64,000 nucleotides of DNA from Octopus sinensis. Its lineage: Eukaryota. The stretch spans positions 47,492,001 through 47,556,000 of the forward strand of contig NC_043000.1 of NCBI RefSeq assembly GCF_006345805.1, read 5' to 3'. The notes under the pieces were generated by a model that did no database searches, was not told the origin of the DNA, and saw nothing but the letters and a program-made list of their open reading frames with translations. This document shows, piece by piece, positions 2,141-11,435 of this stretch. The translations under genes were made by a program, and so were the position numbers. Within the stretch, counting starts at the first letter, position 1; each line of letters begins with the position of its first letter.

Positions 2141-2442
2141 AGCATACGTAACAGCTGTAACAAAGAATACCTAGCTCAAACACATATCCTTTTCTCCCAT
2201 TATTGTTGTGCTTTTTATGTATACATATATGTGTACGTGTGCACCTGTGTGTGTGTGTATTCGTCTATCCTTTTACTTGTTTCAATAATTTGACTGTGAC
2301 CATGCTGGAGCATACACGGCCTTGCAGGGTTTTAGTCGAACAAATTGACCCCAAGACTTATTTTTTAAATCTCTTTTGCCTAACCACTAAGTTACAGGAA
2401 TGATTTGGGACAAGGACACGCGCGCACACACACACACACACG

Positions 2443-2480
<38 letters not shown>

Positions 2481-2625
2481 ATAATATAAGAGAGTGGTCA
2501 CTATATGGCTCACTCTAGCACCAATTAATCCAAAAGGTTTCACCACAAAAATACATGTTTCCCATGAAAGTCAGTACGATTGCTAGCTCACACGGACAGG
2601 GCAAATAAAAAATAACAAAAATACA

Positions 2626-2716
2626 GATTATTTTGGGACAATTGTTTCGCTATTAATGAATTAAATGTAATTCAACTTACAACAAAATCCACTTGTAGCT
2701 CGTCAGCCAAAATATC
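2626..2716 (-). ncRNA. Type I hammerhead ribozyme (element A, inverted copy)
   Basis: Minus strand reads GATATTTTGG-CTGACGA-GCTA...TAGC-GAAA-CAATTG-TC-CCAAAATAATC. Confidence 0.8.
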
Positions 2717-3359
2717 TGATGAAATCCACTCAATCACACGCCAGATTTACCATAACGATAAATACGCGTGTGGTTCAATTGATTACATCCGACGTTATAA
2801 TTCAAATGCCCCAACTAACAGCGCGCCAAACTTTCACGGAAAACAAATACAGCATTTAGAAATAAATGCAGCATAATTATAATTAATTAATAGGGTGAGA
2901 GAATTAGATACTATTTAATAGATATCTATTCAACACCAAGTGGCCTAGTGCTCCGAGAAACCTGGATTATTATAATATTTTATAATATATTATAATATTT
3001 TTACAAAATAAATATAAGAGAGTGGTCACTATATGCTCACTCTAGCACCAATTAATCCAAAAGGTTTCGACCACAAAAAAACATGTTCCCATGAAAGTCA
3101 GTACGATTGCTAGCTCACACGGACAGGCAAATAAAAAATAAAAAAATACAGATTATTTTGGGACAATTGTTTCGCTATAATGAATTAATGTAATTTTACT
3201 TATGCTGCATTTATTTCTAAATGCTGTATTTGTTTTCCGTGAAAGTTTGGCGCGCTGTTAGTTGGGGCATTTGAATTATAACGTCGGATGTATCAATGAA
3301 CCACACGCGTATTTATCGTTATGGTAAAATCTGGCGTGTGATTGAGTGGATTTCATCCA

Positions 3360-3450
3360 GATAGTTTTGGCTGACGAGCTACAAGTGGATTTTTTGTAAG
3401 TAAAATTACATTTAATTCATTAATAGCGAAACAATTGTCCCAAAATAATC
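3360..3450 (+). ncRNA. Type I hammerhead ribozyme (element A)
   Basis: Stem I TTTTGG/CCAAAA; core CTGACGA at 3371; stem II GCTA/TAGC with a long insert; GAAA at 3428; palindromic stem III CAATTG; predicted GUC cleavage after 3439. Confidence 0.8.
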
Positions 3451-3714
3451 TGTATTTTTGTATTTTTTATTTGCCTGTCCGTGTGATAGCAATGTACTGA
3501 CTTCATGGGAAACATGTATTTTTGTGGTCGAAACCTTTTGGATTAATTGTGTGCTAGAGTGAGCCATATAGTGACCACTCTCTTATATTTATTTTGTAAA
3601 AATATTTAATATATTATAAATATTATAATAATCCAGGTTTCTCGGAGCACTAGGCCACTTGGTGTTGAATAGATATACTATTAAATTAGTATCTAATTCT
3701 CTCACCCTTATTAA

Positions 3715-3775
<61 letters not shown>

Positions 3776-3934
3776 CCGACAGGCTTCTTTCAGTTTCCGT
3801 CTACCAAATCCACTTTGGTCAGTCCGATGCTATAGTAGAAGACACCTGCCCAACGTGCTACGCAGGGGACTGAACCTGGAAACATGTGACTGGAAGCCAA
3901 GTTTTTTATCACACAACCATACCTGCGCATATAT

Positions 3935-5347: not shown

Positions 5348-5808
5348 CAATTCCAATCATAGTCCTACATTATCCATAACTCATAAGTGCGTCCGCAATT
5401 AAATATTTTGTGCGACTGGCAGATTGGTAGACCACAATCCATATTATTATATAGCGACTAACTTCTTCTAATTGCTTGTGTCGTCTCAGCTTTTGAATTG
5501 TATGGGTCCGGGTTTTTTCTTTAATAAGTTTAGGTTTCTTGGCTTCCATCTGTTTATATTGGATAAGAAATTAATTTATCATCTCAAGGAAAATATGTGT
5601 TCAGCTTAATCTGTTCTACGCACAAAAAAAAAAGAATATAAAGTGAGCTGCGGAAATAAGGAGAAACAGATAGGAAAATACCCATTCAATTTAATCAAAC
5701 GTACTTTGAAGAAATATTAATATGAAGAAATACATGTATGCCTATAATATATTAGTGTGCGTGCACGTGTGTATGTATATATAGATATATATATATATAT
5801 ATATATAT

Positions 5809-6444
5809 AGCAATTAAGGACAACTACTTAAAAAGGAAAACTTAACAAGAAATTGTCAGGTAGATAGCGTGAAAACCTCATAAGAGAATAAATTTCGAAA
5901 ATAATTATTTCTTATTGAACATATTAATTTATATATAGAGGGCATTATACATACATGCCAGAGAGCATTATACATACATGCCACACGCTAAGAGGGACAA
6001 TTAGTCATTTCTACCAAAAAATATTACTAATTCCACCGAAACCTTATGAGGTTTTCACGCTATCTACCTGACAATTTCTTGTTAAGTTTTCCTTATTAAG
6101 TAGTTGTCCTTAATTGCTAAATTTTTATTCCGAAAAATCTTTTCCTCTCCCGAAATGCAATTCGTAAAAGTATGCCATTTACAGGATGTAATATATGTAA
6201 ACTCACCCATGTGCTTCGTTGATGTTGATCAGTTAGCTGATCGGCTTAAGCGGGACAGGGTCGTTTATTTATGATACATTCAGGCCTGCTGATGAATACG
6301 TAAGTATGAAATCACTGTGATACAGGTCTATATTTTTTAAATGTCTTATTTTGAAAAATTGCATTCGGTGGGATTAGTAATATTTTTTGGTAGAAATGAC
6401 TAATTGTCCCTCTTAGCGTGTGGCATGTATGTATAATGCTCTCT
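5809..6444. mobile_element. Retrozyme-like element B, left part
   Basis: Inverted piece 5809-6040 followed by a sense segment 6043-6444. Nearly identical to the 477-bp unit at 11361-12112; (TA)n on the left. Confidence 0.8.
6282..6329 (+). ncRNA. Minimal type I hammerhead ribozyme (element B, copy 1)
   Basis: AGGCCTG-CTGATGA-ATAC(GTAA)GTAT-GAAA-TCAC(T)GTGA-TA-CAGGTCT; predicted cleavage after 6322. Confidence 0.88.
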
Positions 6445-6700: not shown

Positions 6701-9700
6701 TTAAGCTGGGTTTCTGACACCCACCTTTTTTTCCACTTCCTTCCATCTTTTCTCATACACACCCCGTGGTAAGATCCTCTTTTCCAGCCCCATTTTGCTC
6801 TTCAGATGATATCTGAAGTAAGTGAGCAAGCCGGGGCCCGAGACAAAGGATCCTATCGCGACTCCTTCCATTCTTGTTCGCCACATGCATTCTTTTACTA
6901 CTGCAACCGTGCAGTGAAAACATGCCTCACCTTCCTTCGAGAGTCCAGTTGGCGGTATCATCTTAATCATAGACTCAGCCGACAGCTGTACTCGTCCCAG
7001 ATGCGATAACACGTGTTCTGCGTAACTTATCAAGTCGGACAACTTCCGACAGTGTACAAAAGCGTGCTGGACGGTTTCATCGTCCAACTCGCACCTTGGA
7101 CACGTCGGTGGCACTGAAATTCCGTGCCGCGATAACTTCTCGCGAACAGGTAAAGCATTCCTATAGCACTGCCAGGCCAGGGATCTTTGGAAATTATCCA
7201 AGTACCCCGTCCTGAAAGTCTTTTTAAACAGGTTGGTAAGCTGGTCTTCGTCAACCCCAGAGCCCCTCCTAGGACGTCGTCGTTCTTTGCCTCTACCAGC
7301 CTTCTATAAAATACCGAGGTGGTATTTCCGCAGCCGGCCTTGCCCGCCTTGTGGATCAGCGTGAGTGCCTGTCGGCACTCCTTTTGCCATAAAGTCAGTT
7401 TCCATCTTTTGATGCGACCGGGTTTAAAATTCACTAAGGAGGCCGGTCTCGAGAAAAATTCCCCTGCCAGCGGACTCCACACCTTATCACCCTCCAGGTG
7501 GTGCCAGAGATGCTTCAGCCTCAACGCATGTCTGCGCATCATCAACCAAGGCATTCCTAACCCACCCTTTAACGGTTCCTGGCAGCAAACGGAGCGCCTC
7601 ACAAGTGGCTTTTCCTCCCTTCCACAAAAAGCGGAAAAGGATTCGCTCCAACTTGCTAAGCCATGAATCGGGGCAAGGGACAACGGTCAGGCGGTAAGTG
7701 ATTACAGATGCAATGAACATCTGTACCACCTCCACCCTTCCTTTCAAGGACAGAAACCTTCCGGACCAGGTCCGTACTATGGCCTCCACCTTGCTCGTCA
7801 CCTCACTCACTCCAGTTCCTCTCCGTTTGGGAGTCTGGCCCAAACCAACTCCTAGCAACTTAACAGGGCCATCCGTCCAGTGTCCCACGACACTGGACGA
7901 TATCGACTTGCTCCTCCAGGTGCCGAGGCGCAAGCCACCGACTTGTCCTTGTTAACCTTTGCTCCTGCCACCGCCTCGTATCCTCTGATAGCCTCTTCCA
8001 CACAAGGTAGCTGGGCCTCATTGGACACGATGAGGGTGACGTCATCCGCATAAGCAGTAACCGTCCTCCCACCTCCGATCTCATCCGAGTTACTTCCCAG
8101 CCTCTCCAACTTTCGCAGCAATGGCTCAAGAGCCAACACGTACAAAAGTGGTGACAAGGGGCACCCTTGACGAACTGAACATTCGATCGAAAACGGTTCC
8201 GTTAGGTAACCGTTTATCTGGACGGTGGACTTGATGCCGCTATACATAGCGGAGATCCACCCGCGAAATTCAGGGCCCAGTCCAGCCGCTTCGAGGACCG
8301 TCGCCAGGTACTCATGGTCTACCCTATCGAACGCTTTACTTTGGTCTAAATGGACCATTACCCCGCCCTTGCCGGTTAATTTACCCACCCTATCTAAGGT
8401 GTAGCGTATAAGGTGAAGATTGTCCTGGATCGACCTGCCTGGAATTGCACATGTCTGTGCTCTCCCTACAAGTTTCTCCACGACAACCGTCAACCTTTTT
8501 GCCAACACCTTGGCCAAAATCTTTAACTCTACATTAAGTAGAGTTATGGGCCTGTAGTTACTAATGTTATCCCCCTTGCTCGGGTCTTTCTGGATTAGCG
8601 TCACCACTCCCCGGCTTACAGAACTGGGAATTCTCCCATTCTGCTGCCAGTTCGTGTAGACGCCTGCCAATATTCCCCCGAACAAGTCCGGCATACTTTG
8701 GTAAAACTCGTAGGGCAGACCATCCAACCCCGGCGACTTCTCCCCGGCGCATCCGGCCAGCATCTCCTCTATCTCCGCGGGAGTGATCGCTTCTTCACAG
8801 CACTCCACCTCACGCCCCGAGAGCCGCGGTCCGCCGGCCAGGAAGTCCTTTAAGGTCCTCCCCCGCTCCGGCGCCACACCACCCCCGAACACGCGGGCGA
8901 AATGCTGGTGAAGAAACTTTTGCATCTCCTCCTGTCCATAGATCTTTTGTCCCTGTTCGTCAGTTAAAGACTTGATTGAGGCTTTGTTACCTCCTGACTC
9001 TCTCTCTCACTCGACGGGCCCATCCGGCAACGTTAATACCTTCTCGTTTCCCAGCGCGTAGCTTAGCTCTGACTCTGCAACCTTCGTGTTTGGAGTTAAG
9101 GTGACGGTACAATACCGTCCTTGCCGCCATCACTCCGGATGCAGAGCCAGCTTCCATTGCCTCGTTTAGATTCTTAACTAAATCGTCCTCTATCCTAGAC
9201 CTATCTAACCTTAGCTGATTGCTAAATCTAATGGACTCTGAACGAATGGCTCTTTTGAGGGAGTGCCACCATCTATTGTTAATGATGGTGCCACACAATG
9301 CCCTCTGTACTAACACCTTAATCCGGGTACGGAAGTCTTCACAATTCAAAATAGCCTTGTTCAGCTTCCAGTACCCGGGTCCCTGTCTATGACACTTGTC
9401 TAATTGCATCCTACACGTCACAAATTTGTGATCCGTGTAAGGCACAATGTGAAACTGTGGACAACTAAACGTATCCTTATCTCTTTTCTTAATAAATATC
9501 CTATCTAAATACGATCTGTGTGAGCCGTCGTTGTTACTCCACGTCCACTGTGGAACGCTCAGCTCATCCAGTCGGTAACGGTCCACTAGATCAAAGCTCT
9601 CTAGTAGACCCTTGAGGCTAGGGTTCCCCTTCCTATTGGTTGAGCCAACACTGTCGACCCGCGCTTCAAGGACAGTGTTAAAGTCCCCTACTAGGATTAC

Positions 9701-10095
9701 CGTTTTCGACGTCGCTAAAAAGGGCTCCAGGTTCCGAAAAAACCCGTCTGTCTACTCTCGTTCGGAGCGTAGACAGCTACCAACCTGAAGGACTGTTTAC
9801 TTACGTGGGTCACATCCAGAACAACCAGCCTGCCTTCTGGGTCCAGAAAGACAGTACTTACCTGCAAGTCCAAGCTCTTCCTGATAAGGACTGCCACGCC
9901 TCTGCCTCTTCCTCGGCTAGGAGAAATAAATTTCTCGAACCCATTTAGAAGAGGCGAGAACGCTTGGGCCTCGTTCATCTTGGACTCGGTTGCAATAGCT
10001 ATGTCTACTCCATGTGTCGTGAGGTCGTCCAGGAAGCAAATTTGTTTCCATTCCGACCCCATTCCACGTACATTCACACAACCCAGCTTAGCCAT
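6701..10095 (-). pseudogene. LINE ORF2 (APE endonuclease, reverse transcriptase, C-terminal zinc finger), split by several frameshifts
   Basis: Endonuclease motifs VNVRG, SYLDRIF, TDHK. RT motifs KSPGLDGLP, NYRPITLLN, LDQSKAFDRV, RQGCPLSP, YADD. C-terminal CPRC..H..HC. Spread over ORFs 9715..10095, 8987..9586, 7852..8925, 7487..7933, 7030..7683 and 6701..7201. Confidence 0.92.
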
Positions 10096-10122
10096 TGTCG
10101 GTGAGAGAAAAAATAAATGAAC

Positions 10123-11364
10123 TTACGGTTGAGAAAGGGAGCATGACAGTTTAAATCTGCCCGCCTCCCCTTCTTCCTCCCTTGTGGTCGTAGCTGCAGG
10201 GCTCTTAACCGGCGTTGCCACCGGGCTCTGGGTAGGTGTGGTTGCCGGGGTTATAACAAGTTTACCCTCCAGTACTTCTTTTGTTACATCTCTAATCAGT
10301 CTATTCTTTAGATGTTCCTGCAGTACTTCCTCCTTCCACCCGTCTTCCCCCACTTTTGCGAAGCGAGTGGTTGCTTTTATGTCTGTAGCCTTGCTAAATA
10401 GTTTAAATTTTGAAAATTTATAGTATTTATATACCCTTTCGTTTGTTTCATCAAAAGCAATGATCTTATCATTTTTTTTTAAAGACTTTTTCACATCTTG
10501 TTTTATGGGGAGGGGCTTGGCGAACTGTTTCCCAATGAATACAGTGCCATGGGGGTAGGGCTGGGGAATTTGCTTTGTGTGTATGTCTGCGGTGCTTGCT
10601 GATTTTTTCCTTGTTTGGGGAGGGGAGTCCAGGGTTTTGTCTTTTTTTCTTTTGTGTGTCACCTGTGTGTAATCCATTTGTTCGGTACAATCCGTTTCTG
10701 TTTCTTTGCTTGTCGTCGTCTTGTTTTCTTTTTCCGCCTTCTCCCCTTCAGTGTTAGAAGCACTTTGAGGAGGGGCTTCATTGGTTTTCTTTTTTTTTAA
10801 GCAGTTCGAGCGGACGTGACCCTTCTCGCCACATTTAAAACATCTAGGTCTGCGCCCCTCCACTGACACTCTCATGGACGTTCCATCTTCGTTAAATATC
10901 CTATCGGGCAGGTTCTCCAATATCTTGTTCTCTGCCTGAACGAGGAGTTCCAGCGTCTGTCCCTTCCAGCGTACCTCCTCTTTCCTTCTCATCTGCAGAA
11001 TCGAAATTTCCCGCTCTACATTGTGCAGGACCGCCGCTGCTACCCACATAATATCATACCCTCTCGGTATGTCCTCTACCAGCAGTTTAGCTGTTCTTTT
11101 TCCCATATACGAGGGTAGCAGCATGATATCATCATTTTTCAGGGTCAATGATGACACCTCTCTTGCTACCTCAGCCGAGTCAAAATGTGCTTCAACAGTA
11201 GCGCTGCGAGCACCTCGAACGACATGGCGAATTTTGTCCCACACCGCGGACAAGCACTTTTCGACAATTTCGTTTCTGACGTCCATAATTTTCTTTTCTT
11301 TGTAGCTATACACTTTGTATATAACTGTTTTTTCCTTTATTTCTTGTACCTTCGCTTGTACCAT
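10123..11364 (-). CDS. LINE ORF1, gag-like nucleic-acid-binding protein (413 aa)
   Basis: Uninterrupted ORF; CFKCGEKGHVRSNC zinc knuckle; basic low-complexity C-terminus; ends 28 bp before the ORF2 start. Confidence 0.88.
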   Translation of the reverse strand: MVQAKVQEIKEKTVIYKVYSYKEKKIMDVRNEIVEKCLSAVWDKIRHVVRGARSATVEAHFDSAEVAREVSSLTLKNDDIMLLPSYMGKRTAKLLVEDIPRGYDIMWVAAAVLHNVEREISILQMRRKEEVRWKGQTLELLVQAENKILENLPDRIFNEDGTSMRVSVEGRRPRCFKCGEKGHVRSNCLKKKKTNEAPPQSASNTEGEKAEKENKTTTSKETETDCTEQMDYTQVTHKRKKDKTLDSPPQTRKKSASTADIHTKQIPQPYPHGTVFIGKQFAKPLPIKQDVKKSLKKNDKIIAFDETNERVYKYYKFSKFKLFSKATDIKATTRFAKVGEDGWKEEVLQEHLKNRLIRDVTKEVLEGKLVITPATTPTQSPVATPVKSPAATTTREEEGEAGRFKLSCSLSQP

Positions 11365-11435
11365 GTGCTTCGTTGATGTTGATCAGTTAGCTGATCGGCT
11401 TAAGCGGGACAGGGTCGTTTATTTATGATACATTC

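What the first reader, a model, noticed from the sequence alone, without database searches (positions are those of the whole stretch)
2483..3722. Element A: 1.36 antisense units plus one exact sense monomer, hammerhead with an enlarged stem II
Seen: 3200-3722 is one complete permuted monomer whose ends match the internal junction at ~2877. The upstream 2483-3200 is inverted, so the locus can fold into a duplex of about 500 bp. Stem II encloses a ~42-nt AT-rich insert that standard hammerhead searches could miss. A third hammerhead is cut by the inversion breakpoint (3151-3200). Inference: produced by reverse transcription of a circular or multimeric RNA with a 5' inversion.
Basis: partly seen in the sequence, partly recalled or inferred. 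Interest (0 to 1): 0.7.

Follow-up and report, generated by a model that had tools for sequence, protein, structure and literature searches.

The report
Retrozyme with strict Penelope two-end rule
This is one copy of a young, protein-less 534-base tandem repeat that carries a predicted self-cutting hammerhead RNA; its mirror-image insertions always join one long end to one short end, the signature of Penelope-type jumping genes, so it is likely a known kind of element (a retrozyme) pasted in by a borrowed Penelope enzyme, possibly from a circular RNA.

Summary
The anatomy is real. Window 2480-3722 holds about 1.35 antisense units and about 1 sense unit of a 534-bp non-coding repeat, joined head-to-head at 3200-3202 and inserted into a (TA)n tract. 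Each unit carries a type I hammerhead whose stem II is extended to about 17 bp; the fold covaries across three diverged families, yet Rfam misses it. The family is young and dispersed (405 exact 24-mer hits; arms up to 17 units). All intact 3' ends fall at two sites 129 nt apart. Of 50 independent inverted loci, 49 pair one long with one short end and none pairs like with like. This is the Penelope 'tail' rule with a tail 3-4 times the published length. 5' breakpoints are scattered and ignore the cleavage site, so the 'exact monomer' is coincidence; the longest duplex is about 410 bp, not 500. Best reading: a non-LTR retrozyme mobilised by a Penelope-type enzyme priming twice at internal sites. 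A circular template is favoured by shared variants within arrays but not shown. No partner element, cleavage or expression was demonstrated. The scan has noted similar elements in other genomes.

The parts
2480..3722 (.). Whole insertion: head-to-head array of a 534-bp non-coding unit (short end B on the left, long end A on the right)
2480..2878 (-). Terminal antisense unit, reference positions 1 to ~400, ending at short terminus B
2879..3202 (-). 5'-truncated antisense unit, reference positions 204-534
3200..3202 (.). Inversion junction, 3 nt shared by both arms
   Evidence: 34 of 48 tallied junctions share 0-6 nt
3200..3722 (+). Sense unit, reference positions 3-534, ending at long terminus A
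3358..3452 (+). Type I hammerhead: core 3371-3377, stem II 3378-3381/3424-3427 with paired extension 3382-3423, 2-bp stem III with palindromic loop, predicted cleavage after 3439
2625..2719 (-). Second complete hammerhead (core 2706-2700, predicted cleavage after 2637)
3150..3202 (-). 3' half of a third hammerhead, core removed by the breakpoint
3596..3722 (+). 'Tail': segment between terminus B (about 3595 in this unit) and terminus A; 129 nt in the reference unit
   Evidence: modal ends 405 and 534/535
2462..2479 (.). Left (TA)n target tract
3723..3772 (.). Right (TA)n target tract
2270..2461 (-). Distal half of an older composite repeat split by the insertion (matches 1887-1942 and 2053-2136)
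3755..3932 (-). Proximal half of the same older repeat (matches 1721-1905, 79%)

Best explanation
The element is a copy of a young, non-coding, hammerhead-bearing tandem repeat (a non-LTR retrozyme) whose insertions have two fixed 3' ends 129 nt apart, and it is likely mobilised in trans by the reverse transcriptase/GIY-YIG endonuclease of a Penelope-like element (PLE). Shown: unit structure, hammerhead fold with covariation, (TA)n targets, two fixed termini, one-long-one-short pairing in inverted copies, scattered 5' breakpoints, shared variants within each insertion. Inferred: the enzyme nicks both strands of a (TA)n tract; one DNA end primes reverse transcription at internal site A and the other at site B of same-sense RNA; each cDNA runs a variable distance (0.05 to 17 units) through the unit junction and the cleavage site; the two are joined at 0-6 nt of shared sequence, giving a head-to-head array with the tail on one side only. 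Inferred, less firmly (about 0.55): the template is a monomeric circle made by hammerhead cleavage and ligation.
For: Ends: 52 of 70 clusters are inverted; 51 are A+B, 1 has an interrupted end, 0 are A+A or B+B. Without two duplicated loci: 49 of 50 (one of the 49, L077, has its B end broken by other sequence). In the 32 loci picked by hammerhead pattern alone, 29 are inverted, 28 A+B. Modal ends 405 (31 of 68 motif hits, which include interrupted and junction copies) and 535 (46 of 64); (TA)n follows 50 of 68 and 53 of 64. Two sister families (536 and 523 bp) show the same two ends, tails of about 104 and 110 nt. PLE literature describes inverted 5'-truncated copies, a tail at only one end and (TA)n targets (PMC8557442; PMC3846280), and a purified PLE nicks and extends both strands of AT-rich DNA from two internal start sites that bound the tail (PMC11167929). 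Intact RT + GIY-YIG ORFs of 775-781 aa are in this genome and also end in (TA)n, one family with two alternative ends. Template continuity: breakpoints within 10 nt of the cut 5 of 118 (4.6 expected); differences at the two positions of the cut 1 of 232 and 0 of 232. Monomer bottleneck: alleles seen in one locus only are fixed in all covering units in 10 loci plus the window (e.g. L051 7/7, L062 10/10, L074 17/17, window 3/3 across both arms); for alleles in 3 or more loci, 86 locus cases fixed, 35 mixed. One circularised unit folds at z = -8.7, 68% paired (0 of 30 shuffles).
Against: No autonomous partner with a homologous terminal repeat was found: the unit has only low-complexity similarity to the PLE families examined (20 + 14 loci). 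No cleavage, circle or transcript was shown. Some arrays have mixed or staggered variants (L077, L089, L074) that fit later local duplication or assembly error; the alternating pattern in L089 is not continued in its other arm. Private alleles may come from unsampled source loci (68 loci examined, family larger). A sister family with a U4C core in 52 of 57 exact hits spread equally well, so cleavage may not be needed for insertion, as also reported in vitro (PMC11167929). The hairpin before end B is not more stable than shuffles in this family (z = +0.25). No contig listed spans this locus's junction.
Confidence: 0.8

Rival explanations
1. Same PLE-driven insertion, but the template is an uncleaved linear read-through transcript of an existing array; long homogeneous arrays arise from homogeneous parents or later local duplication, and the hammerhead is a passenger.
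For: PLE insertion in vitro does not need cleavage and uses unprocessed RNA (PMC11167929); only 1 of 9 Xenopus retrozyme dimers cleaved in vitro (10.64898/2026.07.22.740005); U4C sister family is abundant; staggered variants in L077, L074, L089.
Against: Many distinct haplotypes each fill whole arrays and both arms, which needs repeated regrowth from one unit; linear copying can only shorten arrays. The core and stems are kept by compensatory change across three families, and the common core variant sits at the free N7 position.
Confidence: 0.35
2. L1-type twin priming or DNA fold-back (self-priming) on one linear molecule produced the inversion.
For: Short shared sequence at junctions (34 of 48 have 0-6 nt); 11 of 50 junctions have the two breakpoints within 20 nt (3.8 expected, p = 0.001, window chosen after seeing the data); self-priming was proposed for rotifer PLEs (PMC3846280).
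Against: Twin priming predicts the A-arm to stop near site B: 5 of 49 do, 4.2 expected. Fold-back predicts matching breakpoints and a second arm no longer than the first: 39 of 50 do not match, and either arm can be the longer (L045 0.19 vs 7.65 units; L074 0.41 vs 17.3).
Confidence: 0.08
3. The fold-back is a chimeric-read or assembly artefact.
For: Excess single-base indels in the window's units; no listed contig bridges the junction.
Against: The arms are unequal and stop at different conserved termini; the flanks are not mirrored but are two halves of an older repeat split at its (TA)n tract; 51 other clusters share the architecture with other breakpoints.
Confidence: 0.03
4. The units are the truncated terminal repeats of an autonomous PLE rather than an independent non-coding element.
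For: PLE insertions are often 5'-truncated to the terminal repeat (PMC4209133).
Against: In 69 fetched stretches the sequence 5' of a unit is another unit, an inverted unit or unrelated flank; arrays of up to 17 units carry no coding segment; the window has no ORF of 150 aa at the locus.
Confidence: 0.05

Closest known systems
Metazoan non-LTR retrozymes (PMC7229834: passages and Discussion read; bioRxiv 10.64898/2026.07.22.740005: parts 1-3 of 5 read, supplements not seen)
   Same: Non-coding tandem units, one type I hammerhead per unit, low GC (32%), highly self-paired predicted circle, dispersed arrays, PLEs in the same genome; PLE mobilisation is proposed in both papers.
   Different: Unit 534 nt (170-400 nt RNAs in the first paper, 51-972 bp in the second); stem II extended to about 17 bp; in the parts read, neither paper describes head-to-head arrays or two fixed ends. 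Circular RNA not shown here.
Endonuclease-bearing Penelope-like element insertions with inverted pLTR and tail (PMC8557442 and PMC3846280: passages; PMC11167929: parts 1-2 of 4)
   Same: Partial tandems, inverted 5'-truncated copy, extension at one end only, AT-rich or (TA)n targets, two internal start sites, hammerhead in the repeat.
   Different: No ORF; tail 129 nt (104 and 110 in sister families) against 30-40 bp; the one-sided tail is 'often' or 'optional' in print and exceptionless here among resolvable inverted copies; arms reach 17 units.
Non-autonomous Chlamys elements such as MRC1 (PMC8557442: passages)
   Same: Non-autonomous PLE derivatives with multicopy head-to-tail insertions.
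   Different: Those resemble their autonomous families at the 3' end and the clade lacks canonical hammerheads; here the partner is not identified and the hammerhead is canonical in its core.
PLE minimal hammerheads (PMC4209133: passages)
   Same: [quoted passage not shown]
   Different: Here helix II is about twice as long, with two internal loops and a near-invariant apical hairpin; helix I is 6-7 bp plus 5 bp.

Membership tests
Type I hammerhead ribozyme | Core CUGANGA / GAAA / NUH with three stems, stem I open | tested here: met
   core positions nearly invariant in 216-232 units except N7
Type I hammerhead ribozyme | Stems kept by compensatory change | tested here: met
   12 of 27 pairs change on both sides across 11 sequences of 3 families; 90.9% of cells paired against 30-41% for slid controls. 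Only three lineages; structure was drawn from family 1.
Type I hammerhead ribozyme | Self-cleavage at the predicted site | not testable with these tools
   No bench assay; no raw RNA reads available
Non-LTR retrozyme | Tandem non-coding units, each with a type I hammerhead, two or more consecutive | tested here: met
   Family arrays up to 17 units; at this locus no arm has two complete consecutive hammerheads
Non-LTR retrozyme | Low GC, highly self-paired monomer | tested here: met
   GC 0.32, circular fold z = -8.7 (one natural unit)
Non-LTR retrozyme | Expressed as linear and circular monomer RNA | not testable with these tools
   Only assembled contigs of runs guessed to be RNA
Penelope-like element (non-autonomous) | Partial tandem plus inverted 5'-truncated copy | tested here: met
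   52 of 70 clusters inverted
Penelope-like element (non-autonomous) | Tail at one end only, two fixed 3' termini | tested here: met
   51 of 52 inverted clusters A+B, none like-with-like; length 129 nt instead of 30-40
Penelope-like element (non-autonomous) | AT-rich or microsatellite target | tested here: met
Penelope-like element (non-autonomous) | Terminal sequence shared with an autonomous PLE | tested here: inconclusive
   No significant match to 34 fetched PLE loci; only a small part of 5029 GIY-YIG candidates was examined
Autonomous PLE | RT + GIY-YIG ORF | tested here: not met
   No ORF of 150 aa or more at 2480-3722

The most novel reading that the evidence does not exclude
These arrays are a genomic record of two Penelope reverse transcriptases starting together at two fixed sites on one ribozyme-made RNA circle and rolling around it independently, which would explain in one model the Penelope tail, the head-to-head inversion and the tandem arrays of animal retrozymes; the conserved extended stem II and long tail would be the enzyme's loading signals.
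Probability: 0.4. Interest if true: 0.65.

Novelty: new variant of a known kind. Interest (0 to 1): 0.38.

Why it matters
That animal retrozymes are copied from circles by Penelope enzymes has been proposed from co-occurrence and sequence relatedness, and the origin of Penelope's inverted, one-side-tailed insertions is stated to be unresolved (PMC7229834, PMC8557442, PMC11167929). A young family with a strict two-end rule, a long tail that is easy to score and hundreds of copies gives a compact test substrate: one 534-nt RNA, two predicted start sites, one predicted cut. The locus itself is an ordinary copy, and the class is known.

Tried and rejected
Rfam at gathering score and at E<=10: no hammerhead. 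First covariance model on an automatic structure was wrong and was dropped; the second found the family copies and only weak distant hits in 46 sources; it could not be run on the whole genome. Breakpoints at the cleavage site: not enriched. Twin-priming prediction: not met. Idea that an impaired hammerhead goes with short arrays: loci with same-strand versus opposite-strand neighbours were 16:17 in this family, 0:4 and 2:8 in the sisters (Fisher p = 0.12 and 0.15; sister counts read by hand, the C27 cluster left out); family 3 has a mostly intact core and short arrays, and age confounds it, so rejected as unsupported. Dimeric circle at L089: the alternating pattern is not continued in the other arm. 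Partner PLE: none found. Expression: no RNA holder on record; contigs of two runs guessed to be RNA cover parts of the unit but show neither strand, ends nor level. Junction support: no listed contig bridges 3200-3202 in four runs; this proves nothing for a possibly individual-specific insertion. Terminal hairpins: predicted before both ends in most of five families, z from -4.4 to +0.25, so only a weak common feature. Literature searches listed no paper on this family or on a strict two-end rule in retrozymes; subscription papers, Repbase entries and supplements were not seen.

Full report
Observation. The window is animal DNA rich in microsatellites. I take it to be octopus-like from the look of its repeats (recalled) and from other notes of this scan; I did not test this. 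BLAST of 3200-3722 against the window gives two minus-strand matches, 2465-2876 and 2879-3202, at about 95%. Against a natural 534-nt unit (L056) the plus arm covers positions 3-534 and the minus arm 204-534 then 1-~400, with 3 nt shared at 3200-3202. The longest nested duplex predicted is 405-414 bp. The flanks match the two halves of an older composite repeat seen intact at 1721-2136, split at its (TA)n tract, as expected for a true insertion.

Hammerhead. 3358-3455 folds as a type I hammerhead (z = -5.2): stem I of 6-7 + 5 bp, core 3371-3377, 4-bp stem II continued by an 8-bp and a 5-bp helix and a hexaloop, a 2-bp stem III with palindromic loop, cut predicted after 3439. Rfam misses it. 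Two sister families were found through a partial match beside locus L060 and one in L151. On 11 sequences from the three families 12 of 27 pairs change on both sides, including three of the four stem II closing pairs and two pairs of the extension; the apical hairpin hardly varies; slid controls pair at 30-41% against 90.9%. This rests on three lineages and a structure drawn from family 1. The first stem II pair is G-C here and mostly U-U in the sisters; U-U there is a known tolerated variant and U4C is reported to lower activity in vitro (PMC3088659, passages). Other long-stem-II hammerhead-like motifs lie in unrelated flanking repeats, so the feature is not unique to this family.

Family. 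A 24-nt core pattern hits 405 places in G000 (first 100 listed, 42 loci). I fetched 36 loci from the best DNA matches (biased to full units ending at A) and 32 further loci from the pattern list. With the window these give 70 clusters: 52 inverted, 18 not (15 ending at A, 3 at B). Of the 52, 51 have one A and one B end, one (L084) has an interrupted end, none is A+A or B+B. Dropping the second copy of L039 and L082 as duplicates leaves 49 of 50; L077's B end is itself broken. Arm lengths run from 0.05 to 17.3 units and either arm can be longer. Read by eye, family 2 has 7 A+B, 1 possible exception (L109) and 4 unresolved among 12 inverted loci of 20; family 3 has 9 A+B and 4 unresolved among 13 inverted loci of 19.

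Template. 118 5' breakpoints do not depart from uniform and show no excess at the cut; the cut site carries no excess of differences. Substitutions per site: 0.010 within an arm, 0.007 between arms of a locus, 0.015 between loci (281 units, 68 loci; sequencing error included). Shared alleles are usually fixed within a locus (86 fixed, 35 mixed), and single-locus alleles fill whole arrays in 10 loci plus the window, often across the inversion. This fits repeated copying of one monomer. Against it, L077, L074 and L089 show staggered or alternating variants, and unsampled parents could carry the 'private' alleles.

Driver. GIY-YIG search gives 147 matches among 150 scored of 5029 candidates. Several are intact 775-781 aa ORFs with RT, a cysteine linker motif and C-terminal GIY-YIG, the layout given for Neptune/Nematis PLEs in PMC8557442. 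They end in (TA)n and one young family shows two alternative ends about 45 nt apart. None shares more than low-complexity sequence with the unit, so the partner is unidentified.

Comparison. The element works like a non-autonomous PLE and meets the sequence criteria of a non-LTR retrozyme; expression, circles and cleavage could not be tested. Inverted copies and one-sided tails are textbook for PLEs, two internal start sites bounding the tail were shown in vitro, and PLE mobilisation of retrozymes has been proposed. What differs is the 129-nt tail, the exceptionless pairing among resolvable copies, the multi-unit arms and the extended, conserved stem II. Searches listed no description of these, within a library that lacks most subscription papers; supplements were not read and may hold related hammerhead drawings. 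Earlier notes of this scan describe similar elements in other genomes; my reading was written before I saw them, and they are not independent evidence.

Verdict. Real, largely explained by known biology, with a clean quantitative footprint that makes the Penelope-retrozyme mechanism testable. New variant of a known kind, interest 0.38.

Noticed in passing
window 6701-11382, minus strand: A frameshifted LINE with ORF1 (zinc knuckle), AP-type endonuclease and RT frames, L1/Tx1-like by layout (label recalled); unrelated to the element.
   Followed up: partly
G000:C27:12.50-12.96 Mb: At least 48 of 108 exact hits of the family 3 hammerhead pattern lie in one 460-kb cluster at about 1-25 kb spacing, switching strand once; likely carried in a larger segmental repeat.
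   Followed up: no
L102-L121 (family 2): Abundant older sister family (2906 candidates) in which 52 of 57 exact hits have a U4C hammerhead core, yet with the same two ends.
   Followed up: partly
L081:1305-1418, L084:1960-2076, L095:575-689, L096:215 and 1088, L144:6916: Further type I hammerhead-like motifs with long stem II in unrelated flanking repeats.
   Followed up: no
L142-L150, 3' ends: The 781-aa PLE family has a degenerate hammerhead-like motif about 75 nt before its (TA)n end; one family 1 array (L051) sits in the (TA)n tail of such a PLE.
   Followed up: partly
L182-L196: Young PLE family with near-identical intact 775-aa frames, partial tandem and inverted copies and two 3' ends; a candidate driver, no hammerhead looked for specifically.
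   Followed up: partly
runs X1-X20: The unit is held at 43-59% of sampled words by runs under eight coded organism labels, so close copies may be shared among related species or samples; not examined.
   Followed up: no
window 5799-6444: Another pair of inverted repeats (86 nt at 95%, 81 nt at 99%) beside the LINE's 3' end.
   Followed up: no
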